Assembly: GCA_951406725.2 (NCBI GenBank)
Contig: OX597814.1
Coordinates: 66,030,001-66,094,000, forward strand
Direction of reading: 5' to 3'
DNA from: Octopus vulgaris
Taxonomy: Eukaryota
DNA: 64,000 nucleotides
Shown: piece by piece, positions 4,721 to 63,610 of the stretch
Numbering within the stretch: position 1 is the stretch's first letter
How the letters are laid out: each line of letters begins with the position of its first letter
Notes under the pieces: generated by a model
Told to the model about the DNA's origin: nothing
What the model saw: the letters and a program-made list of their open reading frames with translations, nothing else
Databases searched by the model: none
Program-made: the position numbers and the translations under genes

Positions 4721-5044
4721 TACCTAGACTTGGTAGGTGTTTTATTTTCTTGAACGTGAATGGACAATACGCAAAGTCGAACTCGGTGGTATCTTAACGT
4801 ACTGACTACTTGGTAAAATTAATAATTGCTAATTATTAATTAATTAATTAATTAATTTTACAATATATTATTATTAAAATTATAATTTACTCCATGATCG
4901 AAACAGCAGTTTTTGGGTATAAAAGATAGATATGTATTACATTCGGTTGTATATTTTTGGGCGTGCGGGTGAATTTTGGTTTTGCGATGACACTTGATCG
5001 CGTACATATTTAATCCTAACACTCGCAAATTTATAACACGGAGC

Positions 5045-5105
5045 ACCACACTGAGGAGAAAAATAGATAAATATATTTACTTTAAATTCGAAACGCGTCT
5101 GTGGT
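5045..5105 (+). ncRNA. Intact minimal type I hammerhead ribozyme
   Basis: ACCACA CTGAGGA GAA...TTC GAAA CGCG TC|TGTGGT. It has a perfect 6-bp stem I, a full core, a palindromic stem III (ACGCGT) and a GUC site, with cleavage at 5099/5100. Confidence 0.9.
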
Positions 5106-7991
5106 TAACCTAAGTCGTTGTAGATTCATAATTTTTCTTTTTATCTACATATAAATCGGAGATTCTTATAGTAGTTGAAAAGACATTAGCGTCTATTTCT
5201 AATTCAGTACGTGGCATTGCACTTAGCTGACCTCTGATTATAATTATGTATATAATTATAGAATACACATCTGTTATTTACATTTTATTTATATTTTCAG
5301 CGTTTTATTCCGTTGTCGGATTTATCAAAAAGTGGTTTGAAGTTAGATTTCTTGGCCTTTTTATATATAACGAATTTTGTGTGGTTTGCCAATCAAGAGA
5401 AGTGTGTATATATGTATGTATGTATGTGTGTATGTATGTATGTATGTATGTATGTATGTATGTATGTATGTATGTATGTATGTATGCTTGTATAAATGAA
5501 AGAATGTGTAAGAATTTCCTTCTTTTGGAAACAAAAGCACCCACGTTCGATACCACTGTGCTGCATCTTAGCCACATTTCATTTTGTGTAACTGCAGATT
5601 TTCCCCTTCCGTGTGAGTGAAATGGAATTGACTGAAACTGTAAACAAGAGAAACCCGGCACTGAAAATGCAGTGGTTTCGTCAATTAATTTGCCTGCTGA
5701 TTTACGTGCATCTACCTGAACATCTTACACAAGTGTACCCTCGAGTATAGAGAGTGTATGTATATATTTGTGTGTGTGTACATATATATATATATATATA
5801 TGTGTGTACATATATATATACATATAAAAACACATACATGTATAATTAATTCATGCATACACATACATTCACATACACACAAACACACACAAACACCTTG
5901 TATTTATATAGATATACAGAAGAAGTCACCCACTTTTTCACAGAAAATTTTGCTGATTTCTTTACATACACACATATATGTGTGCGCCCGTGCCTTTGCG
6001 TATGTGGGCGTACGTGCTTGTGTGTGTGTGCATGTTTGTGTGTCTGTGCGTGTGTGTGTGTCTGTAAGGGAGAGGAGTGAGTGACATCAAGGATGTTCGT
6101 ATATCTGTGTGCATATGTGAAAGCGTGTGTGTTCAAGTGTATCTGCGTGATTCTTAGTAGTGAATGTCAACTTAAGATAAATTGCTTAGAATTAATACAA
6201 CACATTTCGTATATTATGATATCAATTATGCAACACTTACATTTATTGAAACCTGTTTCATTAGGAATATATAATTTGCCCCGTTTTTTGTCTTCGTGCC
6301 TACTATTCCTTACTCTCTTTTTTTCATATTCACCATATCATTCTCCCTATCTACCATTTCCTTCCCTCTCTATCTCTCTTTTACTGTTTCTATTAAATAG
6401 CAAGTAAATGAATTCTTTGTTGGTTTTCATGTTGAGTGTAACAGAAGATCGATCAACAAACCTAACTATTCAATTGAATTCTAATACAATTGATGGATAC
6501 AACTGCCCACAGTGGTACCATTAAGGTAAGCCTGAAACAAGATCTAAGGTGAAGTGTCTCTGAGAAAGCGGATCCTCTCAATTATAGGAAAAGAACATAA
6601 CGCGCCCTTCCACAAATTTCGACTACCTACTTTCGTTACCAGCGAAGCCGCGTTTAAATCTGAGACAATGAGTGCTATGTGAGGTTCTTAGAAATTATAC
6701 ACAGTTACAATTTAACAAATGGTAGATTTCGATCTCAGTACTTTATCAAAACCAATTGAGGTGAAAGTGATCGTTGTGCCAGGATTTAAAAAAAAAACCT
6801 AGAACTCTATACCCGCATCTCGTATAATATATGAAAGTAGTCCAATTTCAACTGATATTATACAGAAAAAATATTTGTGAATACATGTGTGTGTGTGTCT
6901 GTGTGTGTGTGTGTGATCGGTGGTAAAAATGTCAGTGAGAGGAACAGTAAAATACAACAGCCTTGGGGCGAGATGCCATCGTGCTTGACACCCTATTCTA
7001 CTTGAATATGTTTTGCATGTTCATAAAGTCATCAGAATATGATTTAACTATTGATACAAATTAATCTGGAAAACCAAGACTGAAGAATTATTTTTTACAT
7101 GGGTAACTTTTTAAGTATTTTTGTTGGCATTCCTCCTGTTGCTGTGAAAAATTATATCAATTCTTCCTGTACCAGAACTGGTAACTGAATATATGCCAGA
7201 ACTTACAGGTCTAATGGTAAAGTTATTCTTTAGCTTCCACGTCTACATTTTATTCTGATATCATAATTGCACCTTTCCACATTTTGCAGAGAGCACCATT
7301 GCTCCAGCTTGCACAAGTGAGTTCATAAAACTTCTGTGTGAGACCATTTTCACCAAAGCGCAGGTTTCTTTATCAGTCGACTTACCAAACTTAATTTATT
7401 TGTTTCCACTACAGCTTCATCTCATAAGGTTAAATTTTCTTTGAAGTGACGATAGACTTTTGTCTAATGATAAGTTTTCTTCCTGTACCAACATATACAT
7501 ACCTTGCTGCGCAGTTTCCCTGTTTGGCAGTTCAGAAATGTGTTCAATCCAGTGGAATGCTGCTAGTGAATAGAATAGGGGGATTGTCGGAGAACAAACG
7601 AATAGTGCCGAACTTTTGGACTAATACGCTTCCCTCGTTAAATGATAGTACTACTTACAGTTATTACCTTCACCGACAGCTTTGATGTTATGCACAAGAC
7701 CTCTTTACCATGTGTCTCCATCAGCCTGAGTGATCACGGTAGTTAAAATTTCATAGTCATTACTTCCTTGATCAACCGATAAACTACTATACATCAATAT
7801 ACTGTGAGCAATACCCTTTGCTTACAAGAGAATCTCTACCTCAATATCATTTTCATCAAATCATTTGGCTGTAGTAAATTCTTTGATTTAGAGCATTTAA
7901 ACACGAAGAATCTTAATAGTCCCACTTATTTCTCGCGCAATCATAATCGTCCACAATTTTCCACATAAAAAACAATAATCCGTCCACTACT

Positions 7992-12994: not shown

Positions 12995-13090
12995 ATATGT
13001 AAACCCGTTTATTATATAGCTAAAGTAAATGTCCTTGTCAACACTTACCAAACCATCTGCCTTTTCATTTCTGCTATAATGCATCTATCT

Positions 13091-13492
13091 AAGGCGGCGA
13101 GCTGGCAGAAACGTTAGCACGCCGGGCGAAATGCTTAGCGGTATTTCATCTGCCGTTACGTTGTGAGTTCAAATTCCGCTGAGGACGACTTCGCCTTTCA
13201 TCTTTTCGGGGTCGATAAATTAAGTACCAGTTATGCATTGAGGTCAATGTAATCGACTTAATCCGTTTGTCTGTCCTTGTTTGTCCCCTCTGTGTTTAGT
13301 CCCTTGTGGGTAGTAAAGAAATAGGTATGTCATCCGTCTATATGTTCTGAGTTCAAATTCCGCCGAGGTCGACTTCGCCTGTCATCATTTCGGGTTCGAT
13401 AAATTAAGTATCAGTTGCGTACTTGGGTCGATCTAATCGACTGGCCCTCTCCCCCCAAAACTTTCCAACTTTGTGTCTAGATTAGAAAAGTA
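13091..13492 (+). mobile_element. SINE family A with an internally duplicated central domain
   Basis: Head AAGGCGGCGAGCTGGCAGAAACGTTAGC. The TTCAAATTCCGC...GTCGATAAATTAAGTA block is present twice. Confidence 0.9.
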
Positions 13493-15452: not shown

Positions 15453-15464
15453 GATAATTTCTAC

Positions 15465-15853
15465 TAAAAGCAGAATGCCTGAAATTTGGTGGGAGGGAAC
15501 TAGTCGATTACATCGACCCCAGTGTTTCACTGATACTTAATTTATCGACCCCAAAAGGATGAAAAGCAAAGTTGTCCTTGGTGGAATTTGAACTCAGAAT
15601 GTGAAGTCATACAAATTACCTATTACTTTACTACCCACAAGGGGCTAAACACAGAGGGGACAACCAAGGACAGACAAATGGATTAAGTTGATTACATCGA
15701 CCCCAATACGTAACTGGTACTTAATTTATCGACCCCGAAAGGATGAAAGGCAAAGTCGACCTCGGCGGAATTTGAACTCAGAACGTAACGGCAGACGAAA
15801 TACCGCAAAGCATTTTGCCCGGCGTGCTAACGTTTCTGCCAGCTCGCTGCCTT
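15465..15853 (-). mobile_element. SINE family A, duplicated-core subfamily
   Basis: Reverse complement of the 13091-13492 architecture. Confidence 0.9.
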
Positions 15854-17539
15854 AATAATAATAATGGTCATAACAAAAATGGTTTCTTTTAAATGTCGCC
15901 GATGAAGGGAACAATACAACGGAAGTCGTAACGTGTAGAGATTTACATAGAACGGATTGATTTAAAACATATATGTACATAGCATACAGAATTAACAAAA
16001 TGTAATTAATGCTAGTATACACAGTACACAGCATAAGAAAAGTGATGATGATGCAATCCCCTTGTTACAGGGCTTCAAGGTTAATCGATTTACCCAAAAA
16101 GCTAAGATCTTCCTAAGCACCAAGGGCAGGTGCTGTCTCTAAATTTTGTTCTCCGACTTACAGGCTTTCACTTCGAACGGTGCCATGCACTCATGCCATT
16201 TTCACCACTTTCAAAAAATCCCTCGAGGACTGCACCTCCTTCTCCACCATCACTTTTGACTTTAAGTAAAACTTGAGAAGTCGATGAGGTCTCTCCAAAA
16301 AGGAAACTCTCTTCACTCAAAGCTGGCAGCCTTATCCACCATCCGACTTCTTTCGCTATAGCCACCAGAGAAAGGGAAAATGTTTTCTCTGTCCGATTAA
16401 AGAAGATTCACAGCATATACTACTAGTAATACTACTTTGCCTAGAGAGGGAGTCTCTACGTAATCACGTAAGCCGCCAAAAATTTTAACTAAATCATCCT
16501 GAATTACTTGCTGTACTAGAAGGAAAGAACTCTACTGCATTTTATGAAATATTATATTCATCATTATTTTATCCTTTTTTTTTTACTGGGATAAATTAAT
16601 ATTGACTATTCTATAACAGAAAATTGTGCTTACATCTAGAATGTCGGTCAAACCATGAATTCCAGGCATAGAAATCTCCTTGTCAGGACATATGAATGGC
16701 ATCAGAGAATAACAAAAGTGAAAACACACCAAGAACCTTGAAATCCTTACAAAAGTGCAACACAATGTCTTCAAAATACTTAGAAAAACTACCAATTAAC
16801 AATTAGAATTCATTTATAATCTATAATCTGAAAGCTTTTATTATTTAACATGTGGCATTCATGTAGGAATAACTTAACGTTTTTGTAACTGCAACACTGA
16901 TCAATCACCATTAAAAGTTGTATTCAACTCAGTTCAGACCATTTTACAGCGGAGTGGACCTACAACATATATGAGGAAAAAACTTGCAGTCAATACATTG
17001 ATACTACAAATAACACCCGCAGTCTAACAAAGAACGACAATAGACAAGAAATATTAATAAACTTTCTGAAAAACAAACATAAAGCATACCAATTTAATAA
17101 ACATATACATATATACCACCATTATACACAACAAGTAATCCCCAAAATTACTCCCTGTCCCCAGCTGCAGCTCTTTAACATCCATAAACACCGTCAGTAA
17201 TAGAGATGTCAATTCACACTTTGGTTTTCGAAGTGATAATATACTCTCCTTACATCCTAAACACACTAAAACACAGCCTTTTCCAAACCGACAATATATC
17301 CATACACGTAAACTGCCCACTATAACTACTTAGCTAACAATTTCTTTGCCATTTACAATCCTAGATTCTGTTGGTTGCAGTAGCATGGTAGGCAAGCGCT
17401 TGACTCAGTCTGAGAATGCCAGTTAGTGTTCTGCAAATATTTTTTAGGAGTGTGCATTCCAGCACAGTTTTTGGAGCTAATGAGGTTACTGATGTTGCAG
17501 CTATTCTTGACTTGACGTGTTAATATTTATATCAGCTGA

Positions 17540-17864: not shown

Positions 17865-19300
17865 AAGAGCCTGGGTTCTAATTCCTAAAGTATTTTTCGA
17901 TTGCCTGGAATCGAACTCAGAATCTTGAGGTTAGTAACGCGCGCTCTTAACCACTACACCATATGCCTGTGGGTAATTATGGAGCGAATTTTAGGGCTAT
18001 AAATCTAATATTTTCCTATCCTTCCTTAGTACCGGTTCCCATATACTAATCATATATGCACTCGGTCTGCTTAGGAGGTTGTTGTGTCCTAGCATATGTG
18101 CTGCTTCTTTTAGTTTTCGCACTTTCCAGTGGTGTTCTCTGTCTATTATTTTAATTTCACCCCACAACGGGAGGTGGTCTCCATTTTTCCAAACATGATC
18201 AGCTATACCTGATTTATCAATATCTCTTCATGTCACAGCTTTGTAATGTTCCTCTACCCTTATTTTGAGGGGGTGGCATGTATCGCTTTTATATAACCTA
18301 CCACAGCTGCATGGGATGAAGCACACGCAGTTTTTGGTCATATTCTATTCTACTGGTGGTTTTACTCGAAGGAGATATTTGCAAAGTGTTGTATTACTCT
18401 TGAATACTGTTCAGATTTTATATAGGCCGCATATCTTTTGTATCTTTTCGGAGAGGTCTTTCACATAGGGTAGACAGACTGTGGATGGTTTAATAGTTTC
18501 ATCCTCTCTTTTCTTCACAATTGGAGTGGTTAGTATGTTTTTGGGGTAGTTGTTGCTTAATAGATTGTTATTGAGCTTGATAATTTCTTCGTGGTGGGTA
18601 TCACGATCGCCACTTATATTCTTCGCTCGATGTTTTAGGCACTGAGCAATCCCTCTTTTTACACTGAATGGATAGTGGGAATTGATGTTGTGGTATCGTC
18701 CAGTGAAGGTCGGCTTGCAGTATACGGATGCCCTGAATCCATACTTGGTGTGTGTTATTAATACGCCCAGGAATGCTAGGTGATTGTCTTTTTTCCTTTT
18801 CCATTGTGAACTGTATGGATGACTTTATTCAGTTCGCATAATCTAACATAATTTGCACATCTTTCTGGTGGGATCAGAGAATAAAGATGCCATCAACATA
18901 TTGCAGCTGTAGTGTTGGTTTTAGTGGTGTTGATCCTAAAGCCATATTCTCAAAGTTTTCTATGTATATATTGGCTATTATCGGTGATAATGGTGAACCC
19001 ATAGCTGCTAGACCCTCTTCTTTTCGATATATATCAGTGTCCATACTGAAGTAGGTAGTTTCTACACAGAAGATCAACATTTCCATCAAGTTTCTCATTG
19101 GTATACTAGTGTGTTCCTTTTAGATGGGTGTTCCTTTTAGATGGGTGTCTGTCACTAGTTTCTCTTGAATCACCCATAGTGCTTCAGCAGTTGGGACTTT
19201 GGTGAACAGACTTATCACAGCTAGACTCACCATCTGATTGGATTCAATGGGGGCATCCTTGATCAATTCTATGAAGTGGGTGGAATTCTTCACGACAAAT
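17865..19300 (-). mobile_element. Penelope-like element (Poseidon-type), 5'-truncated, decayed RT + GIY-YIG
   Basis: VKNSTHFI..VISLFTKVP, GLAAMGSPLSPIIANIY and QYVDGIF (PLE RT motifs). A GIY-YIG-like IPCSCGRLYKSDTCHPLKIRVEEH lies near 18245-18320. Confidence 0.85.
17902..17967 (-). other. tRNA-like Pol III promoter module just downstream of the PLE ORF
   Basis: GGCATA TGGTGTAGTGG TTAAGAGCGCGCG TTACTAA CCTCAAGATTCTGA GTTCGATTC CAGGC, containing A and B boxes. Confidence 0.75.
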
Positions 19301-21800
19301 CTGTTCGGAATAGTGCATGCCTGCGCGTTACCGACAAGCTTAAAGACAAGCGCCAACCTCATGGCTAAAATATTAGCCAAAATTTTATAATCTGCGTTTA
19401 GGAGAGTTACAGGCCTAAGAATTATCTATTTGATTCCCCTTGTTCGGGTCCTTTCTCAGCAGCAATACTACGCCACGGCTCATAGCACTGGGTATTATCT
19501 CTTTCTGCTGCAAGTTGTGATGGACATCCGCCAAAAGATGGCCAAGCAAGTTTGGCATATGGATATAAAGATCGAAGGGCAAACTATCCATCACGGGAGA
19601 CAACCTCCACCTCACGCACTACATCATAGAGAGGGTAGGGAAGGAACCTGGCATGGGTGGGTCTCTGATCAATTTGGATCAATAAAAGGCCTTCGACAGG
19701 ATCAACCATCAATACTTGGAGGCAGTCTTCGTGGCGGCCAGTTTTGGTCCCATTTTCAGAGGCTGGATCGTGGTCAAACTAAACGGCCATCTAACGGAAT
19801 CGTTTAGCATCGCTCGCTCGGTCCGTCAAAGATTCCCACTGTCTCCTCTTCTGTACGTGCTGGCTCTCGAGCCATTACTGAGAAAGTAGGATACTTCGAG
19901 GGGCAACCAGCGTGATTTAGGATGCGTCCTGTATGTCTTCGGCTGTTATCGGCATTTTGCAGAACTCCGCATCCCTGGCCTAAAGGCGCGGCATGCCATT
20001 GAGATAGGAGGTGAAATTCATCTCCTTCCTTCACACCTCGTGCACCCCAAACAATTCAGCGAAGTGCTGCTAAAATACCGTACACATCTTCTTGGACGCG
20101 TGTAGCATACGCTATTCCCGGATTGTCAAAGACCGAATTGTGGCTTTGTTTCCACGTTGAACCTCTGTCGTTCGGGTCCATCGAGCGGCTTTCGTCCCTT
20201 CATGTCTTAGAACACGCGCTCTAGATATGACAACGCAATCTTCATGCTTGGCACGTCAGTCGTGATGCCTCACCTAAGCTCCTCTTCTAGCTTTCTAACT
20301 AACTCTCCCTCTTTCCACAAATGTTATTTCCTTACTAAATCTTACTGCCTCTACTCTAATAACCCTTTTTAGGGCTATCAACCAACGGCTGTTGCCGATT
20401 GCCCCCGCCAACTTCCGATGGACTAACTCGCTCACCCGGTTTCTGAATGATTGACGCGCTGGGAAAGCTGGGTCCTGGCTATGGATCCTATCCAGGTTGA
20501 CCGTGCAGATCACAAATTTGTAGTCTGTGTAGCCGATGACTTTGAACTGTGGACAGTCTATGCTACTTCTATCTACTGGCCTACAGAATACCCTATCTAA
20601 ATACGATCTGGAAAACCCGGTTTGTTCGCCAATGTTCACATTGTTGCATTCGGGAAATCCAGTCGGTACCTGTCAGCCAATTGGAAACGACTGAGCAAGA
20701 TTGTGAGGCTTTTTCACCCCACTCTTCTATCGGTTAGCCCCACCCTGTCCAGGCGTGCATCCAGCATGGCGTTCCAATTGCCCACTAAAACTAAAGGGTG
20801 AGATGTCCCAAAGAAAACTCCCACACGTCTGAAGAAATCTGGCTGCCTAGCCCCGGTTGGGGCGTACACAGCGACTAGTCTGAAAGCACTACCTTCGCTG
20901 CCACTCGCATCCAGGACCACCAAATTACCTTCCGGATCGAGGAAAATAGTCCATACCTCGGGATCTAGGCCTTTCCTAAACAGCACTTCCACCCCGCCTC
21001 CCATTCCAGGCCGACTAAAAGATGCGTAGATATCAAAATTGTCGAAAATGGGAGCCAGATCACGTATGTCAGAAATCCTGGTTTTGCTGACGGCCGCCAC
21101 ATCCATAGATAGTGACCTGAGGTCGTTGAGCAGACGCTCCTGCTTCCAGGGCGACCCCAGGCCAAGAACATTTGCACAGCCAACTCTAATCAAATGTCGC
21201 ATTTAAGCTTTCTGCCTTCTACTCAAATCAACCCCATTGGGCAGCTGTATAAGGTCCGGGATTTCTTCCATGTTTTCCGGCTTCACAAGAAGCAGAATTT
21301 CTATTGTTATCTCGGACCAGTTTCCCCTGCTGCTCCGTTTCCCCTCTAGGAGTGAGTCCGAATCCTCTACTACACACGCTACGATACACCAGACATTCAT
21401 GCCTGGTATTTTTTATTCTGGCAGTTCTTTTTGAGGGGTAGATTTGGAACAGAACCCACTGTTTACTCCATGGGGACGTTGCTGCACGTTTACGTGCGAG
21501 TACCTCACTTCTGAAGGGGACATCGATGCTGACATACTGTCTGCTTCTTTGTAAATGGTCCACGTCTTCTAAAATGTCCTACAGAACCACCTCCACTTGA
21601 CGTGTAGATGTTGTTTCTACTCGCCTGCTCTAGCGAGAAACATTTAAAATAGATAGCTATTTTCTCACCTCATTTAAAGCGATTCACTGAGTACAAGAAC
21701 CACTGCTTTAACCCGCTCCACTTTTATGGGTTTTTTGGGGGAAGAGGGGCTTGCGCCAATTCTTTTGTGCTATCATCTAGGGCCAACGGAAACATTTATT
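19301..21800 (-). mobile_element. Tx1-clade (L1-like) LINE: ORF1 remnant, APE endonuclease and RT N-part; may extend to ~22320
   Basis: APE ORF 20714-21202 (VGCANVLGL, VAVYAP, LVGNWNA), GYTDYK (SDH), and RT SPVMDSLP, RGVVLLLRKDP and PVTLLNADYKILANILAMRL. Confidence 0.9.
19598..19915 (+). mobile_element. Inverted Tx1 RT segment inside the same element
   Basis: Plus strand reads DNLHLTHYIIERVGKEPGMGGSLINLDQ*KAFDRINHQYL...SVRQRFPLSPLLYVLALEPLLRK. Confidence 0.85.
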
Positions 21801-31288: not shown

Positions 31289-31330
<42 letters not shown>

Positions 31331-31538
31331 GTAAAGAGTGAAAAAACTACAGAAGGCTTGTTTTAAAAGGTTAAAAAATATGTATTTGAGTCAATATGTC
31401 TGAAGAATATTATTAATTTTTTTTTTACAATGACATAGTTTAGAAGAAAGACCGGTTTCGCGTTTAGCTTTTCAAATTTCTTACGTCGTTATGTTTATGT
31501 TGAGCAGAGTTATCGTTATGTTTATGTTGAAAAGAGTT

Positions 31539-32902
31539 CTAAATAAGGGGAGGTAATGAGTGATTTCTTCCGGTGTAAGGGAGATAATCGCTTAAAATTT
31601 TTTTGCCTTTCCCTTGGTGTGAATTTCTCTGTATCAGTATGTTGGAATGGTTAAGTCTGGGCTTGTACTTTTCAATGAAGAATGTTTCCTTGTTTAGTCT
31701 AATTTGTGTTAATGATCCGATAGCACATTGGTAAAATGGAAAGATTAAAAGTTGTGGTAGTAGTTGCTTTGCGCATTTCTCAATGTGCTCACTAAAAGGT
31801 ATCATTCTGTATTCTGGGAATGCAATCTGTTGTCGATGCAGTGTGCATCTACGTCTGAGTGATAGTCCCGTGGATCCCACGTAGTCTTGGTGGCAGCCCG
31901 AGCATTTTATGACATAAATTATGTTTTCAGAGGCACAAGTAAAGTTAGATTTGATCTTGAATTTCTGTCCCTCTTTGAAGAGGAATTCTGATCCTTCTAG
32001 CAGGTTTGGACATGTTGCACAGTTCGATCTACCACATTTTTTTACTTTTGCATCCGTAATTTCAGAAAACAATTTTGCCTTTGTGAGAATCTTTTTAAGT
32101 GATTTAGGTTGTTTGTAGCTTTTAATGATTTGGTGTATGTTTAGAATTTCCTTTAATTTGGGGTCCTTATGAAGTATTGGTAAATTCTGGGTGATGATGG
32201 TGAAGGCTTCTTTGTTTCTGGGGTTGTATGTAGATATGTAAGGTAGTATTTTCGGGGAAGGTGCGTTGTTGTGTTGAACTTTTCTTAAAGTTTCTATGTT
32301 GATTTCTGTTGCACGTCTGATCCCATCCTCTATGAGTTGAGTTGGGTAATGTCTGTCAATTAGGGTGTTTTTGAGTTCTTGCAGTCTAAAGTTCCTGGTA
32401 TTTTGTTCTGACATTATTGTGCATATCCTTCTTGCAAGGTTGAAGGGGATGTTTGTTTTAGTGTGTCTTGGGTGGCATGAATTAAAAAGAAGGTATTGTT
32501 TGGCGTCTGTGGCTTTGTAAAAAATGTCTGTTTCTATTTTAAGGTTAATTTTGAACTGTATATTTGGGTTTATGCTGTTCAATAGGTTTTTAAATTTTAG
32601 GAGTTTATCTGTGTTTTCATTCCAGAGTATAAAACAATCGTCTAGGAATCGTTTCCGATTCTCTTTTATGTATTGAGAGAGGGGGTTTCCAAAGATTGAT
32701 AAAGATTCCTGGTAAGTGATTATTTCCAGGTAGCTCATTGTTAGGTTCGCAATGACTGGTGCTGCCCTTGTACCCATAGCAATTCCGGATTTTTGACGGT
32801 AAAATGTATTGTCAAACATGAAGTGGTTATTATGTAGGATGAATTCAATTGATTTAGTAATGAATTCTTTACTGATCCTTTTTGGTATTTCTTCCGGAAA
32901 TT
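31539..32902 (-). pseudogene. Penelope-like element (Neptune-type) RT C-half + GIY-YIG endonuclease, ~450 codons still open, 5'-truncated
   Basis: QKSGIAMGTRAAP, RFLDDCFILW, YLLFNSCHPRH, linker CGRSNCATC and NIIYVIKCSGCHQDYVGST. The N-terminal ~47 aa of the listed ORF are read through from repeat sequence. Confidence 0.93.
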
Positions 32903-32904
32903 GG

Positions 32905-33620
32905 TATATATATATATTTATATAATAAATGAATAAATAAATAAAACATGTGCATATATACATACATATATGTACGTACCTACCTCTACATGTATATATA
33001 CATGCATATATGGGTACAGGACACCAAAAAAACGTCGAACACAATGAGAAACGAAAACATAATCACAAAACCAAGGAAATGGACATTTTTCTTAAACAAC
33101 GAAAAAATAGAGTACAGGACATACAAAACAAGGAAAATTCCCCTTCTTCAGTCGCCTTTGTTTCATCTACTCCACGTTTCGAAGGTCAAGGCGATACATG
33201 ACTTTAATTAAACTTTCTTTCCCGCGAAAATCAAATTAAATAACATTTGAGATTTTTTGCGGAGGGGTAAAAATGGTAACAAAAACAGGACAGTAACGAC
33301 AGTACAAAATATAAACAGTAAAAGACAGGACACGGAGAATAACAGTAACACAAACAAGAAAGGCTGTTAAGCCGAACGAGATAAATTTTTTTACGAAAGC
33401 TATTTTTTGAGAACGGCGAGGGAGCAACAGATTTGCCGTCTCTACGTAAAGGTAGCCAGGAGAAGAAAGACAGTAGTAAGCTTCTCATCACGTGTCCGCG
33501 ATGGGAGGGAAGAGGAGGAGTAAGAGAAAGGGAGAGAAAAAGGGAATGGTTGTAGAGAAAAGAATGAAGAATGAGAGACAGTAAGGTAGAAGAAAAGGAA
33601 AGTCAAAAGAATGAAGGCTG
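32905..33620. mobile_element. Non-coding repeat related to 12051-12851, abutting the PLE truncation point
   Basis: Shared TGCATATATACATACATATATGT..TGCATATATGGG.ACAGG, TCTACTCC...TTTCGA, AACAAAAACAGGAC and CAAACAAGAA.GGCTGTTA blocks, plus a purine-rich tail. Confidence 0.55.
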
Positions 33621-47684: not shown

Positions 47685-48493
47685 GAAACAATGAAAATGC
47701 TAATCAAATCATTATAGTAGTGATATTAAAGACAGAGAAAAGGATAGCGATTGGAGTGCGTCTGTGAGAGACTTTATACTAATCAGTCAGATGACCCATT
47801 ATGGGCGTATGTGCATCAACTTTGGGGTTCGCCTGAGCTTTATAGAGTTACATTAAGTGTTAGGGTATGAAATATCTTCTGTTCCTACACAGAAGGATAA
47901 TTGATTTGGATTTGGTCCTAGATATGTGAAGGTCATGTAATCTTTAAGATAATGAAACTCAATAACTGAAGTGGTTTTGAACGCTCCAGCGGAATTCCGG
48001 CAAGTCGTGCAATTAAGTTCCTTTGATATGAATGTTATTTGTGCTGAGGATTGTTATGGTGGAATAAATGCTTGAGATTAACTGCTACTGGATATGTTAG
48101 CAAGTAAGTCATTCATGTCTAAAATGAAGAGTACTGTACCCCTTACCGCTATAGCTATAGCATTATACAAACAAGCGAAAGTTTACCAAATATGATATAT
48201 AAAATAATCTAAAATTGATGCTGTTTTTGTACCTCAAAGTAAATGTGAAGCGTCTACAATTGGCATTTAAGTATAATGAACCAAAGCACATTTTTGCAAT
48301 AGTCTTTTGAAACAGAATTTAGTATTTTAGCGTATAAGCAGGTACCGAGAAATGCGAAATTAAAGGATTTTGCTGAATTCGAGAAGAGATAAGTTGATGC
48401 ATGTGTATGCTTATGTTCAGGTTGAAGCCATTGTTTATTTTTGGCCGGGTTTGTAAGTTGTATTTATTCTTAAGTAATATTATGACTTGGAAA

Positions 48494-48710
48494 AGGCAGC
48501 GAGCTAGCAGAATCATTAGCACGCCGGGCAAAATGCTTAACAGCATTTCGTCCGTCTTTATGCTCTGAGTTCAAATTCCACCGAGGCTGACTTCGCCTTT
48601 CATCCTTTTGTAGTCGATAAAATAAGTACCACTTGTGCACTAGAGTCGATGTAATCGACTTACCCGCTTCCCCGAAACTTCTGACTTTGTGCCAAAATTT
48701 GAAATCAATA
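48494..48710 (+). mobile_element. SINE family A
   Basis: Full head and central domain. Confidence 0.88.
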
Positions 48711-53470: not shown

Positions 53471-53524
53471 CAACAGGAACTCTACAAAACAAAATAAAGA
53501 ATTTTATCAATATATAATGTACTT

Positions 53525-54135
53525 AAGGCGGCGAGCTGGAAGAAACGTTAGCACGCTGGACGAAATGCGTAGCCGTATTTCGTCTGTCGTTACGTTCTGA
53601 GTTCAAATTCCGCCGAGGTCCAATTTGCCTTTCATCCTTTCGGGGTCGATAAATTAAGTACCAGTTACGCACTGGGGTCGATGTAATCGACTTAATCCGT
53701 TTGTCTGTCCTTGTTTGTCTCCTCTGTGTTTAGCCCCTTGTGGGTAGTAAAGAAATAGGTATTTCGTCTGCCGTTACGTTCTGAGTTCAAATTCCGTCGA
53801 GGTCGACTTTGCCTTTCATCCTTTCGGGGTCGATAAATTAAGTACTAGATGTATAATGTGGTCGATCTAATCGACTGGCCGCTTCCTCAAAAATTTCGGG
53901 CTTTGTGCCTGGAGTAGAAAACAATAATTAGAGGCGGCAAGCTGGCAGAAACGTTAGCACGTCGGGCGAAGTGCTCAGCGGTATTTCGTTCGTCTTTACG
54001 ATCTGAGTCCAAATTCTGCCGAGGTCGACTTTGCCTTTCCTCCTTTCGGGGTCGATAAATTAAATACCAGTACTGGGGTTGATGTAATCGGCTGGCCCCA
54101 TCCCCCAAAATTTCGGGCCCTGTGCCTAGAGAATA
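53525..54135 (+). mobile_element. Two head-to-tail SINE family A copies, the first with a duplicated core
   Basis: Heads at ~53526 and ~53932. Confidence 0.9.
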
Positions 54136-55415: not shown

Positions 55416-55420
55416 GCATA

Positions 55421-55487
<67 letters not shown>

Positions 55488-55491
<4 letters not shown>

Positions 55492-55801
55492 GGGCTGGGC
55501 TTGCGCATCACCATGCACTGAAAAACAGACATCAAAAGACACTAATGCCACTATAAATTCTCCAAGAAAAAACACTATATATCGGCTAGTAGAAGAAAGA
55601 AAATGAATTACAACTTAGGTTAACCGCGTACATGATCGTGTTTCGGGCTTAAAGTAATAAAAAAACTTTTTACCTTCATCAGCGACGGTGTACCCAGGCA
55701 TATAAATACGAGTGGCTACGTGTATGCGAGCGAGCTGCGCCATCACTTATCTTATATCCGTTGAGACTCACACATGTATGCTGCGCAAGCCAAGCCCTTG
55801 T
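55488..55801 (-). mobile_element. 314-bp element bounded by ~28-bp inverted repeats with TA flanks, carrying a hammerhead ribozyme
   Basis: Left end ACAAGGGCTGGGCTTGCGCATCACCATG; reverse complement of the right end ACAAGGGCTTGGCTTGCGCAGCATACATG. TA occurs at 55486-87 and 55802-03. Confidence 0.8.
55623..55689 (-). ncRNA. Type I hammerhead ribozyme, core intact
   Basis: ACCGTCG CTGATGA AGGTAAAAAGT...ACTTTAAGCCC GAAA CACGATCATG TA|CGCGGT. Stem I is 6 bp with one bulge, stem III is near-palindromic, and the site is GUA. Confidence 0.85.
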
Positions 55802-55900
55802 TATAATTATGTATAGAATTATAAAATATTTAAATTAATTTACCTACGAGGTTTTATTTCCGTGCTGACCAGTTGGTAAAAATCATTTATGATTTTACCC

Positions 55901-55980
<80 letters not shown>

Positions 55981-55989
55981 TATTATATA

Positions 55990-57094: not shown

Positions 57095-58553
57095 TTGAGA
57101 GTTTGACAGCAACTGTGCAGATGATTAGCAAAGATATTGGCATGGAATTTGGGATCGAGAAATGTGGTGTAATGATTCTCAAAAGGGGGAAAATTAGTAA
57201 AAGCCATGGGATCAAGCTGGAAAGTTGTGAAACTATAAAGGAAGGAGAGGAAGGATGTAAGTACCGGGGTATCATTGAAAGAGATAAGATGAATGAACAC
57301 AAGATGTAAGAAATGTACGGGAAAGAGTATTTGAAGAGAACTCGGCTTGTGCTCCAATCAAAATGGCCGCTATAATATTAGAGCAATTAATACATGTGCG
57401 GTTGCTTTGGTGAGATGTAGGGCATGAATAGTATCTTGGAAGAAGCGCGAATTACAAAAGATAGACCAGAGAACACGTAAATTTATGACAATAAACAAGG
57501 AACCACGCCCCAAGAGTGATGTGTAAAGATTGCAGGTAGATAGGAAAGAAGAAGGACGAGGATTGGTGTGTTGTGAAGGTTGTGTAAGGGAAGAGGAGAA
57601 TAGCTTGACTTGGTGTGTCAAGGGGAGTAATGAAGAAATGATTAAAGCAGAGAAAAACACAAATTATGAAAGACCAGAGAGAGCAGATGAAGAAAATTTG
57701 GCAGGACAAGAAAATGCACAGTCAGTTCTTGAAGAATAAAGATGAGATTGATTGGAATAGAATCTGGCAATGCTTGCAGAAGAGAGACTTTAAAGGGCCC
57801 ACCGAGGCATTAGTGTACAGCGCTCACAAACAAGCTCTCAGAACAAACTACTCCAAATATCACATTGATAAAAGCTCTGACTCGCCGCAGTGTAGGATGC
57901 GCTCTGAGAAGTGAGAAAGTATAAGCCATATTGTTAGTGAGTGTTGTAAGCTTGCACAACAAGAATATAAAAGGAGACACAACAATGTGACCAGATATCT
58001 CTACTGGCTGTTGTGCGGTAAAACAAATCTTGAGTGACCCGAAAAATAGTATGAATACGAGCCAGAGGGAATAATGAAGAACGAACATTGCAAAATATTC
58101 TGGGATTTTAACATATAGTGCGACGAAGTCATAGAGGCGAGACGATCAGATATCGTGCTCATCCATGAAAAAGAAGTAAAGATAATAGATGTTACAATAC
58201 CAGGCGATTGGAGAGTGAAATGTAAGAAAAAAGAAAATATTGAGAAATACCAGCCACTGCGGGACGAGATAGGAAAGTTAGAGGGCGTGTGGAAAGTAAT
58301 AGTGATTCCGGTAATAATTGGAGCATTAGGAGCACTTTTCAAGGGCTATGAAAAATATATCAAGAATATAGGAGTTACTGTCAGGATCGAGGTGATCTAG
58401 AAGACTGCATTGCTGGTTACAGCTCGCATTCGAAGGCAAGTTTTGTTTGTTTGGGTCACAGGTGAAGGCACTACTTGAAACCTTTGGTGATTTGCCATTG
58501 CCTGCTTTCAAGTAAAGAATAACCGGTAATTAAGAACTATTCGAGAGACTTTC

Positions 58554-58630
<77 letters not shown>
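57092..58630 (+). mobile_element. 5'-truncated R4/Dong-like LINE with a (TAA)n tail
   Basis: MEFGIEKC, EALVYSAHKQALRTNY, CRMR and RRSDIVLIHEKEVKIIDVTIPGD..PVIIGALG. (TAA)n spans 58554-58630. Confidence 0.9.
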
Positions 58631-58633
<3 letters not shown>

Positions 58634-59381
58634 ACAGCAAGACCAGAAAACTACAGACCTATAACCTGTCTCCCTACAATGTACAAAGCATTCACTACAG
58701 TAATATCACAAGGATTGAACAAGCACCTGGACGAAAACAACCTGTTTCCAGAAGAGCAGAAGGGGTGCCGCAAAGGCTCATATGGCTGTAAAGATCAAAT
58801 AATGATCAATAAAGCCATAACTGAAGACAGCCACAGCATACCCCACACATGGATCCTCGAAACACTAGCCATTAACAAAGTAGCACCAACAATTATAAAA
58901 TACATAGGACACTCTATGAATAAATGGCAGACAGTGCTACAGCTCCAAACAAATGAGGGACTCGTGAAAACCAAAGCCATCCCCATTAGAAGGGGAATAT
59001 TCCAGGGAGACACGCTCTCTCCACTCCTCTTCTGCTTGGCACTGTCACGGCTATCTGATATGCTAAATAGAACTGGATGCGGATATAAATGTACGGCAAA
59101 ACGATCAGCCACCTTTTATATATGGATGACCTAAAACTATACGCTACAAATGACAAACAGCTGGAAACACTACTAAAGACAGTTTATGGGTTTACCAAAG
59201 AAATAGATATGAAATTTGGATTAGAAAAATGCGCCAAAGTAACCCTGAAAAGAGGAAAGCTAGTTAAGAGTAGCAACCCCACACTAGATAAAACCAATGA
59301 AATAAGAGAAGTAGACCAAAGCCAAACTTACAAATATTTAGGAATCCATGAACTAGATAAGACACAGCACACACAAATGAA
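58631..59381 (+). mobile_element. R4/Dong-like RT core fragment
   Basis: NYRPITCLPTMYK, EQKGCRKG, GIFQGDTLSPLLF, HLLYMDDLKLY, YKYLG. Confidence 0.92.
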
Positions 59382-59700
59382 ATCCCTCACGCCGGGCTTC
59401 ATTTTGTTGATTTCGCTACTGATGTGCTCTCTCAACGAGATACCAAGCATTGACCTTCCCATGGCTCTTTGAGCCGTTACTAGTCTCTGTTCTTCTCTCT
59501 TTGTTGTAGCCCATGTTTCACTACCATATAACATTGCAGGTAGAACTGTACTGTTGATGAGGTTGGCGCGATTGGTCCTGTCCAACTTTCGCTTGAGCAC
59601 ATCCCTTATGCCATTAAACGCCTTCCATCCGGCCCTTACTCTCCGTGAGATCCTTCACGATGGACCATATATTTACTCTAACACAACTGCTTGAGCGAGC
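59382..59700 (-). mobile_element. RTE-clade RT thumb fragment fused in opposite orientation to the preceding LINE
   Basis: NSTVLPAMLYGSETW...QRAMGRSMLGIS. Confidence 0.85.
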
Positions 59701-61439: not shown

Positions 61440-63610
61440 ACAACATGTTTAAACCTCTCCTTCCAGGATCACTGTGAAACCAATAACATTATCAAAGCAG
61501 AACAAGCAGAAGAAAGGAGTCTGGGGATGTGCTGAGCAATTGCTAATCAACAAAACTGTGGTGCCAGAGGTGAGAGAGCATAGGAGGAACCTACTTTCAA
61601 TGCGGCTAGATGACAAGAATGCCTTTGGCTCTGTTCCCCACTCATGGATGCTAGAAGTTCTTCAGCTTGCTAAGGTTCCAGTGGCTGACCTGACTTCATC
61701 GTGGGCCACCATCTTGAAATTAAACACAAAGAGTGACTGTATTATCACTGATAGAATACAATACCGCAAAGGCATATTCCAAGGAGACAGACTCTCTGTG
61801 ATGTAAACCCCTTGTCATTCCTGTTCAGGAAGTCTGAAGGATATCTCACTGGTTCAGAAGGAAACAGAAATACCACTGTTACTTTGTGGATGACTTAAAA
61901 TTTATGCAAAGAATATGCATGAGATGAAGAAGAGCCTTGACCTAGTTACAACATTCTCAAAGGATCTAGAGTTGGAGTTTGGTCAGGATAAATGTTGTGG
62001 TATGGTTGTGAAAAGAGGGAAGACTATAAAACAGACTAGTAGCACCACCGTCAATAATTTGACTGTTTCCCCTGTATCTGACGAGGAATATTACAGGTAT
62101 CTAGGGATAGATGAAAATATATCGTACAATGGCACCTGTAACGTGTCACTAAAGAATATTACAGCCGAATAAAGAAAATTTGAACCTCAGAACACACTGC
62201 GTTCAATAAAACAGTGACCCACTGTGTGTTTGCAGTGCCAGTACTCATACCAACATTTGGGCTGCTTGATTGGACGCTTGATGAGATCCGAGCCATTGAT
62301 GTGAAAACACGAAAACTACTAACAAGCACACATAATTTCCACATAAGCAGATACGTAGACCACCTCTACCTAAAATCTAAACAAGGCGGCAGAGGTTTAA
62401 CATCTATCCAAAATGCCTTTGAATGTCGTATCATATCCCTTCGGCAACATCTTTTAACCACCAGGCATCGAAGTACATTCCTTGACCAAGTTTGCATACA
62501 TGAGGCTGATAGCGTCACAAGACTTGGAAGGCAGCTCTTTGAGCAACACTCTGATAACCTAGAATACATGCCCAAAGAAGTCGCACGACTCTACCGCAAT
62601 ATATCATTAGATGAAAGGATGAGTCTAAATGAGCAGAAGACTATGCATGGATATGTTAGTAGAAAGCTCTGTGATGATATTAACATCGATCATCAAAGCA
62701 GTTTATCATGGGTGAAAAGCCGGATTACTACCTCCCACTTTGAAGGGTATGTGTTTGCAATCCAGGAACAACTAATATCAAAAGGGATACAGATGCGGGG
62801 AAAAGCCGTAAAATGTGACAACCGATGAAGACTTTGTGGAGTTCACACTGAGGATATCACCCATATCATAAGCAGTTGTCCGAAAATGTTATTCTATAAT
62901 GAAATCCGTCGGAAGGCTAATCCCGAGGACAAAGAAATAAGAACCCACAATATGGTAGAAGCCATAGCCACTCATAAGGGAAAGGAATACTGGTGGAATG
63001 TACCAGTGAAAACCTCAAGAAAATGTATGCACAACAGACCTGATTTAATGATTTGGGATATAGAAGAGAAACTCTACATAGTTGTGGAAATTAGCTGCCC
63101 GGCGGATGTCAACATAAAGCTGAAGATCAGTGAAAAAGAGAACACCTATGCTGAACTATTGAGAGGTCAGCAGATATTCTATCCAGATTACGAGTTCAGG
63201 CTGTAATTATTGGGGTACTGGGATATGTAAAACACCGCCTAAATACCAATCTTGAGAAATTAAGCTTCTCAAAATCAGAAAGGAGAAAGCTAATTCGAAG
63301 ACTACAGTTCCAATCCATCACTGGAACTGTAAAAATCTGTAAAACTTTGCAGAAGTTTATCATTTAAATATATATGGGTAAGTCTAGATATGTAACTATA
63401 TGCATGAGAATACATATATAAAACATAAAAATCTGCACATACATGCATATACATGCATAAATACATACATACATACATGCATACATACATACATACAAAC
63501 AAAAATACCCTGTTATTGATGTTGAAATTCCAATGGAGGAACCTTGGATCGAGGTTAGGAACCGGTTCTTTCTCTATTGGCAAGAAATCTTGAAATAAAC
63601 TGAATAATGT
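61440..63610 (+). mobile_element. R4/Dong-like LINE, 5'-truncated, with REL domain and 3' UTR
   Basis: EQLLINK, KNAFGSVPHSW, GIFQGD, LEFGQDKC, GGRGL, FAIQEQ and NRPDLMIWD..VEISCPAD. It begins next to (TACA)n. Confidence 0.9.

What the first reader, a model, noticed from the sequence alone, without database searches (positions are those of the whole stretch)
55486..55803. Hammerhead ribozyme packaged between terminal inverted repeats (MITE-like shell, retrozyme-like cargo)
Seen: a 314-bp unit TA-ACAAGGGCT.GGCTTGCGCA...TGCGCAAGCCAAGCCCTTGT-TA with ~28-bp inverted ends, enclosing a type I HHR with an intact core (55623-55689, minus) that is preceded by TATTTATA. Established: animal HHRs usually sit in direct-repeat PLE pseudo-LTRs or retrozymes, not in TIR-bounded DNA elements. 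Inference: this is a DNA-transposon-mobilised ribozyme element, an inverted PLE-type terminus, or a transcript whose ends pair into a closing stem. I know of no description of such an element.
Basis: partly seen in the sequence, partly recalled or inferred. Interest (0 to 1): 0.85.

Follow-up and report, generated by a model that had tools for sequence, protein, structure and literature searches.

The report
Penelope-type hammerhead repeat, not a MITE
The apparent 'ribozyme in a DNA-transposon shell' is two cut-short copies of a dispersed 528-base hammerhead-bearing repeat joined head to head at this one site, an arrangement already known for Penelope-like retrotransposons, which likely copied it.

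Summary
The hammerhead motif (55689-55623, minus) and the inverted ends are real; the MITE reading fails. The unit belongs to a dispersed non-coding family with a 528-bp monomer. None of 47 other matches carries the second 'TIR'. The right 'TIR' is the start of an inverted, 5'-truncated copy (55783-55908) joined through 3 shared bases. Both 'TA's lie inside the monomer.

19 of 40 family loci hold such head-to-head pairs, each with its own junction (repeat 12-472 bp). 3' ends fall at two fixed sites about 86 bp apart, mostly beside (TA)n. 19 of 21 scorable pairs use one of each. This is the published Penelope-like insertion pattern, also seen in an autonomous Neptune-type family here. Helix II covaries across three subfamilies.

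Best reading: a decayed, non-autonomous, retrozyme-like Penelope passenger. Its tail is longer than the described 30-40 bp, and no autonomous partner was found. Cleavage and expression are untested. The scan noted similar Penelope hammerhead stubs in other genomes.

The parts
55483..55785 (-). Arm 1: 5'-truncated copy of the 528-bp monomer (monomer positions about 369 to 153, counted from the hammerhead cut). It ends at the tailless 3' site, which has decayed into (TAT)n
55783..55908 (+). Arm 2: inverted, 5'-truncated copy (monomer about 126 to 253).
55783..55785 (.). Head-to-head junction; 3 bases (GCG) are shared by both arms
   Evidence: (overlap 3), sequence
55479..55507 (+).
55782..55810 (-). 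Right arm of the inverted repeat; internal monomer sequence in other copies
   Evidence: (table 7)
55623..55689 (-). Type I hammerhead motif. Helix I has 6 bp with a bulge; helix III has 3 bp and a near-palindromic loop; predicted cut 55629/55628; activity untested
55701..55708 (-). TATA-like octamer. An AT-rich motif sits 10-35 nt upstream of the core in 31 of 40 distinct motifs; this exact octamer is within 40 nt upstream in 8 of 40. Promoter role untested, no background control
55802..55823 (+). AT-rich hairpin marking the tailless 3' end site of the family (one substitution here); shared by subfamilies A, B and C
55824..55908 (+). 85-bp 'tail' between the two 3' end sites; present on arm 2 only
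   Evidence: 85-87 bp in all 29 matches, overlapping loci not removed
55417..55485 (.). (AT)n then (AAT)n microsatellite at the left end; likely target and expanded end
55909..55985 (.). (ATT)n microsatellite at the right end, followed by an unrelated repeat

Best explanation
The locus is two 5'-truncated copies of a dispersed, non-coding 528-bp hammerhead-bearing repeat joined head to head, likely written in by the enzyme of a Penelope-like retrotransposon acting in trans. SHOWN: the monomer and its length, the two arms, the 3-base junction overlap, two fixed 3' end sites about 86 bp apart, (TA)n flanks, and one-tailed/one-tailless pairs. INFERRED MECHANISM: a longer-than-unit RNA is bound by a PLE RT/GIY-YIG protein that nicks both strands of a (TA)n target. 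Reverse transcription starts at two internal RNA sites, one per strand, as reported in vitro for a Poseidon element (PMC11167929, passages). The two cDNAs stop early and join at their truncated ends through 2-4 shared bases. The apparent TIR is the part of the monomer both arms happen to cover, here only 20-29 bp. The hammerhead would process multimeric transcripts into unit-length or circular RNA, possibly as a dimer through the near-palindromic loop 3 (inferred). This copy is old (76-88% identity to relatives) and its helix II is weakened, so it is probably a relic.
For: 0 of 47 other matches carry query bases 1-16. Family sequence continues past both claimed ends. The period is 528 bp in natural partial tandem L010, and arms reach 794-800 bp, longer than one unit. 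Adjacent head-to-head pairs occur in 19 of 40 subfamily-A loci and 14 of 28 subfamily-B loci. A core-pattern search blind to the ends gave 14 of 28 distinct loci (partly the same loci). All 19 A junction pairs differ and the repeat spans 12-472 bp. A 2-4 nt overlap occurs in 9 of 19. One tailed plus one tailless end occurs in 11 of 13 scorable A pairs and 8 of 8 B pairs (p 1e-4 against 0.5). (TA)4+ lies at 65 of 93 classed 3' ends against 80 of 1279 background 50-mers. An autonomous Neptune-type family here shows the same pattern: 17 of 32 ends tailed (about 40 bp), and 4 of 4 inverted pairs with one tail. Helix II: all 4 pairs show two-sided changes, 0 of 500 shuffles reach 79.9% paired, slid controls at most 43%. 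The same architecture is in print.
Against: No autonomous element with matching termini was found. Four PLE families (30 + 25 + 25 + 2 loci) share only AT-rich simple sequence with the monomer. The tail is 85-87 bp, not 30-40 bp. 2 of 13 scorable A pairs are tailless at both ends, and 6 A and 6 B pairs could not be scored. Loci are the best-scoring hits, not a random sample. The 35 motifs for covariation were picked by a core-motif pattern and fall into three related groups, so the changes are few independent events. The element's own hairpin holds (TA)3, which may inflate the flank count. Rfam has no hit. No target duplication or empty site could be read because both flanks are microsatellite.
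Confidence: 0.88

Rival explanations
1. MITE or other TIR-bounded DNA element that carries a hammerhead and is moved by a transposase.
For: A 20-bp inverted repeat flanked by TA on both sides. The 314-nt unit folds with its ends paired (z -3.0). One family locus (L015) has a mariner-like ORF about 500 bp away.
Against: The second end is absent from 47 of 47 other matches. The junction probe is unique to this site. Both TAs are monomer-internal and the complementarity runs through them. Copies are 5'-variable and 3'-fixed. The mariner-like ORF lies outside the arms, in 1 of 40 loci.
Confidence: 0.01
2. The monomer is simply the truncated 3' end (pseudo-LTR) of an autonomous PLE whose ORF-bearing copies are rare or lost, not a self-standing non-autonomous unit.
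For: Most PLE hammerheads in animal genomes occur as truncated single ends (PMC4209133). The hammerhead lies about 150-170 nt from the 3' end, as in the Neptune-type family here (about 125-155 nt).
Against: Long arms run from one tail site straight into the next hammerhead region with no ORF, closing a 504-530-bp loop in all three subfamilies. tblastn with a Neptune ORF found PLE coding sequence in 3 distinct family loci only, outside the arms. Two Hydra-type neighbours are separate insertions with unrelated ends.
Confidence: 0.07
3. The inversions arose after insertion by fold-back repair or recombination in microsatellite-rich DNA, and the family spreads as a satellite or by another retro-enzyme (a LINE).
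For: Flanks are unstable microsatellites and junctions show microhomology. No matching PLE was found.
Against: Later repair does not predict two fixed 3' sites used one each in 19 of 21 pairs. No long arrays were seen among scored loci (longest arm 800 bp). There is no poly(A) or tRNA-like head in the stretches read (not tested with a tRNA scan).
Confidence: 0.04

Closest known systems
Insertion architecture of endonuclease-bearing Penelope-like elements (Penelope/Poseidon, Neptune, Nematis, Naiad, Hydra); PMC8557442 and PMC3846280 (passages), mechanism in PMC11167929 (passages)
   Same: 5' truncation, partial tandems, an inverted 5'-truncated copy at the 5' end giving inverted repeats around the unit, an optional tail at one end, (TA)n targeting, microhomology junctions and a hammerhead near the 3' end.
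   Different: No ORF. The tail is 85-87 bp rather than 30-40 bp. No autonomous element with matching ends was found in 4 families checked.
Animal non-LTR retrozymes (PMC7229834, abstract and passages; bioRxiv 10.64898/2026.07.22.740005, parts 1-3 of 5 read)
   Same: A non-coding, low-GC, head-to-tail monomer with one type I hammerhead per unit and a structured predicted circle (z -5.3). They are proposed to be non-autonomous PLE derivatives.
   Different: The monomer of 504-530 bp is above the 170-400 nt RNAs of PMC7229834 but within the 51-972 bp of the preprint. Copies here are dispersed and at most about 1.5 units (one C locus about 1.8), not arrays. Circular RNA and cleavage are not shown.
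PLE hammerhead variants with short palindromic helix III (PMC4209133, parts 1-2 of 4 read)
   Same: Palindromic loop 3 and an A after the CUGANGA box; subfamily C has the minimal form. Inverted hammerhead pairs 100-700 bp apart are noted there.
   Different: Subfamilies A and B have a 3-4-bp helix III and a long two-part helix II. Subfamily A has A.C, or an extra-A register with only 2 bp, at the base of helix II.
Tc1/mariner-type (Stowaway-like) MITEs with TA duplication (features recalled, no call)
   Same: Only the look of this one locus: short, with inverted ends next to TA.
   Different: The ends are not shared between copies, the TA is internal, and the lengths are not uniform.

Membership tests
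MITE / TIR DNA element | Both TIRs shared by family copies at precise ends | tested here: not met
   0 of 47 other matches hold query bases 1-16; junction probe unique
MITE / TIR DNA element | Target-site duplication (TA) outside the TIRs | tested here: not met
   Both TAs are monomer sequence; complementarity runs 9 bp beyond them
MITE / TIR DNA element | Autonomous transposase element with the same termini | tested here: inconclusive
   None in the fetched family loci (ORF survey); no genome-wide transposase search run
Non-autonomous PLE-mobilised element | Variable 5' truncation with fixed 3' ends | tested here: met
   55 of 64 A arms and 38 of 45 B arms end in two classes; 5' ends spread over the monomer
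Non-autonomous PLE-mobilised element | Inverted 5'-truncated copy adjacent at the 5' end; partial tandems | tested here: met
   19 of 40 (A) and 14 of 28 (B) loci; arms up to 800 bp
Non-autonomous PLE-mobilised element | Optional tail, usually at one end only | tested here: met
   19 of 21 scorable pairs
Non-autonomous PLE-mobilised element | Tail length 30-40 bp as described | tested here: not met
   85-87 bp; the Neptune-type family here has about 40 bp
Non-autonomous PLE-mobilised element | Microsatellite target bias | tested here: met
   (TA)4+ at 65 of 93 ends against 6% background
Non-autonomous PLE-mobilised element | Homology to the pseudo-LTR of an autonomous RT/GIY-YIG element | tested here: inconclusive
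   None in 4 families sampled; other PLE families not sampled
Non-LTR retrozyme | Non-coding head-to-tail monomer with one type I hammerhead | tested here: met
   Periods 528 (A), 504 (B), 530 (C) in natural tandems
Non-LTR retrozyme | [quoted passage not shown] | tested here: inconclusive
   Not met at this locus. No same-strand pair one unit apart among 32 A/B core matches. One C locus (L112) has two complete motifs. No genome-wide dimer count
Non-LTR retrozyme | Expressed as linear and circular RNA | not testable with these tools
   No RNA holder listed
Type I hammerhead ribozyme | Core C3-A9, G12-A15.1, U16.1, H17 with three helices | tested here: met
   helix II covariation
Type I hammerhead ribozyme | G10.1-C11.1 pair | tested here: inconclusive
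   A.C by homology with B and C in 19 of 20 A motifs; met only in the extra-A register
Type I hammerhead ribozyme | Self-cleavage | not testable with these tools
   Needs an in vitro assay

The most novel reading that the evidence does not exclude
This is a superfamily of dispersed 500-530-bp retrozyme-like units (three subfamilies) whose insertions carry the full Penelope footprint. That would be direct insertion-level evidence that animal retrozyme RNAs are integrated by PLE enzymes. The 86-bp tail, twice the described length, would point to an unsampled or extinct PLE whose two reverse-transcription start sites lie unusually far apart.
Probability: 0.55. Interest if true: 0.4.

Novelty: new member of a known kind. 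Interest (0 to 1): 0.25.

Why it matters
It removes a false lead: a short overlap between two head-to-head Penelope-type arms inside TA-rich DNA mimics a TA-flanked MITE. The real family is a modest but useful case. The 2026 preprint links animal retrozymes to PLEs by co-occurrence and pseudo-LTR similarity in vertebrates and says other animals were not examined. Here the link shows in the insertion geometry itself. The two end sites 86 bp apart give a concrete template for testing two-site priming in trans.

Tried and rejected
Rfam: no hammerhead match over 12 kb or over 291 bp at E up to 10; the motif is supported by hand anatomy and covariation instead.

Whole-window repeat scan: swamped by microsatellites.

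Autonomous partner, all negative. The Neptune-type family of the window (30 loci), a second Neptune-type family (25 loci), a Poseidon-like family (25 loci) and a Hydra-type element beside two B/C copies show no similarity beyond AT-rich simple sequence. Two family hits 9.2 kb apart on C4 enclose LINE-like ORFs that split one copy, not a PLE ORF.

Pfam and PDB sequence searches did not name the PLE ORFs. They were named from motifs in PMC8557442 passages, from recalled motifs and from Atlas neighbours carrying HTH_animal, GIY-YIG and RVT_1.

5' ends piling up just upstream of the hammerhead (lead from note e1-7858061): 6 of 64 A arms fall in a 17-nt window, p 0.017 uncorrected but 0.85 after allowing for window choice. 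Rejected.

Subfamily C end counts were discarded because the reference stretch included a microsatellite. Duplicated loci were dropped before counting, leaving 40 A and 28 B sites; one site counted in A (L063) has a B-type loop 3.

Expression: no RNA holder listed, which is no evidence either way. In the three contig sets laid, no listed piece bridges the junction, but 766 pieces were not shown.

A genome-wide count of tandem dimers was not obtained.

Literature: no paper describing a TIR-bounded hammerhead element or this family turned up in searches (listings only for papers not named as read). Repbase and Dfam were not available, so the family may already be catalogued. Supplements were not opened; those of the preprint are closed and list its families.

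Full report
OBSERVATION. A 20-mer occurs at 55488-55507 and, inverted, at 55782-55801, with no match in 100 shuffles. The minus strand holds a type I hammerhead motif at 55689-55623 with the predicted cut at 55629/55628, preceded by TATTTATA at 55708-55701. Inside the proposed ends the repeat is 19/20. It reaches 27/29 only by running nine bases outward through both TAs. Rfam gives no hammerhead match, and the lowest-energy fold is not the hammerhead fold. The genome is 2.8 Gb in 227 contigs; its repeats recall an octopus (from memory, not tested).

COPIES. A search of the genome with the 314 bp gave 48 matches from 40 scored of 183 candidates. All 47 other matches start at query base 17 or later. 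In the fetched copies the sequence runs on past both claimed ends, and natural partial tandems give a 528-bp monomer. Mapped on such a natural copy, the locus is two arms: a minus arm at about 55785-55483 and a plus arm at 55783-55908. They are joined at their 5'-truncated ends by three shared bases. The 'TIR' is the part of the monomer that both arms cover. A 30-nt probe across the junction matches only this site among all loci held. Contigs from three public runs (2 studies, kind not on record) show loose ends at 55783-55788 that continue into the family's normal upstream sequence, so the right 'TIR' is internal in other copies.

FAMILY GEOMETRY. Two older or more abundant subfamilies exist: B (68-78% to A; 757 candidates) and C (about 62%; 973 candidates; one copy in this window at about 4800-5310). 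Candidates are not copy numbers. After dropping duplicate loci, adjacent head-to-head pairs occur in 19 of 40 A and 14 of 28 B sites; C counts were discarded as noisy. A core-pattern search blind to the ends gave 32 matches and 0 controls; 14 of the 28 distinct fetched sites have adjacent inverted arms (partly the same loci). All 19 A junction pairs differ, with repeats of 12-472 bp, and 9 of 19 overlap by 2-4 nt. 3' ends fall into two classes, at an AT-rich hairpin or 85-87 bp beyond it: 55 of 64 A arms and 38 of 45 B arms. Of 21 pairs with both ends scorable, 19 have one of each, 2 are tailless at both ends and none is tailed at both (p 1e-4); 12 pairs were not scorable. (TA)4+ lies at 65 of 93 classed ends against 80 of 1279 background windows, though the hairpin itself holds (TA)3. 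These loci are best-scoring hits, not a random sample.

INTERNAL CONTROL. The window holds a 5'-truncated PLE ORF at 31539-33062 from a young, abundant family. Its Atlas neighbours carry HTH_animal, GIY-YIG and RVT_1. Its DKG motif and Cys linker fit Neptune-type elements as described in PMC8557442 (passages; full ORF). Its ends show the same two classes: 17 of 32 with a tail of about 40 bp, (TA)n flanks, and one tail in each of 4 inverted pairs.

RIBOZYME. In 35 motifs picked by a core pattern (20 A, 6 B, 9 C), all four pairs at the base of helix II show two-sided changes. 79.9% of cells pair, 0 of 500 shuffles reach that, and slid controls give at most 43%. The changes sort by subfamily, so they are few independent events. 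The first pair is A.C in 19 of 20 A motifs. An extra-A register would restore G-C with two pairs, and an unpaired base there is typical of PLE hammerheads (PMC4209133, parts 1-2 read). Loop 3 is near-palindromic: self-duplex -9.0 kcal/mol here and -20.6 in the perfectly palindromic L011. The constrained hammerhead fold scores -8.4 here, -13.6 in L010 and -10.5 in L011. A natural monomer folded as a circle gives z -5.3, 0 of 60 shuffles. Cleavage is untested; in the preprint only 1 of 9 tested retrozyme dimers cleaved. No RNA run was listed.

MECHANISM. PMC8557442 states that PLE insertions often have an inverted 5'-truncated copy at the 5' end, forming inverted repeats around the unit, a 30-40-bp tail often at one end only, and (TA)n targets for some clades (passages). 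PMC3846280 describes the same, with microhomology junctions and trans-mobilisation by pseudo-LTRs alone (passages). PMC11167929 shows in vitro that a Poseidon protein cuts and extends both strands and starts at two internal RNA sites whose spacing is the tail; hammerhead cleavage was not needed for insertion there (passages). I infer the same route: both target strands prime on family RNA, one at each site, and the truncated cDNAs join through a few shared bases. Arms longer than one unit (up to 800 bp) need a multimeric or circular template. The shape is shown; the enzyme, the RNA and the ribozyme's role are inferred.

PARTNER SEARCH. No DNA similarity beyond simple AT-rich sequence was found between the monomers and four PLE families: two Neptune-type, one Poseidon-like and one Hydra-type. 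Two hits 9.2 kb apart enclose LINE-like ORFs that split one copy. The partner is unsampled, diverged or extinct.

COMPARISON AND VERDICT. It is not a MITE: shared TIRs and a TA duplication were tested and not met. It works like a non-autonomous PLE passenger and resembles animal non-LTR retrozymes (PMC7229834, abstract and passages; bioRxiv 10.64898/2026.07.22.740005, parts 1-3 of 5). Strict retrozyme membership is open because arrays, circular RNA and cleavage are not shown. The one tested departure from the known pattern is the 85-87-bp tail. Paper searches listed no description of this family, but repeat libraries were not available. Earlier notes of this scan report similar Penelope hammerhead stubs in other genomes and nothing on this sequence or genome. 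One lead from them, 5' ends piling at the hammerhead, did not survive correction here. New member of a known kind; interest 0.25.

Noticed in passing
window 31330-33062 (minus): 5'-truncated Neptune-type PLE (507-aa open frame) from a young family (94-98% protein identity, 27,823 first-look candidates). Its 3' UTR near 31470-31440 has a minimal hammerhead-like motif with U and A where the usual core has C3 and G8, like the variant noted in PMC4209133. It ends in (TA)n and is followed upstream by its own inverted piece (not mapped).
   Followed up: partly
window 4800-5310 (plus): Distant relative (about 62%) of the 528-bp monomer (subfamily C) with a minimal hammerhead at about 5045-5106, a clean G-C-closed helix II and the same terminal hairpin at 5238-5260.
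   Followed up: partly
window 18411-19071 (minus); loci L197-L221: Fragment of a Poseidon-like PLE. Relatives end in a short repeat with a minimal hammerhead, often in inverted pairs.
   Followed up: partly
L170 and L171 (G000:C1:40414000-40423000; C14:44279500-44288500): Hydra-type PLE (DKT motif) with a long Asn/Ser-rich insert between RT and endonuclease, inserted in (TA)n next to B and C copies, with inverted 5' pieces.
   Followed up: partly
L172-L196: Second Neptune-type family (about 61% to the first in the endonuclease part). Its 3' UTR keeps the GAAA-side of a hammerhead but no clear CUGANGA box in the copies read; the optional tail is about 45-50 bp by eye.
   Followed up: no
window 58523-59472 and 62184-63206 (plus); 19391-21202 (minus): Broken LINE-type ORFs (RT and AP-endonuclease motifs by eye).
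   Followed up: no
window 13090-13459, 15458-15855, 48493-48662, 53523-54071: Dispersed repeat of about 400 bp in both orientations (84-89% alike); not identified.
   Followed up: no
G000:C8:106826600-106933494: Five subfamily-C copies with the same inverted geometry at 20-40-kb spacing, suggesting a large tandem segmental duplication.
   Followed up: no
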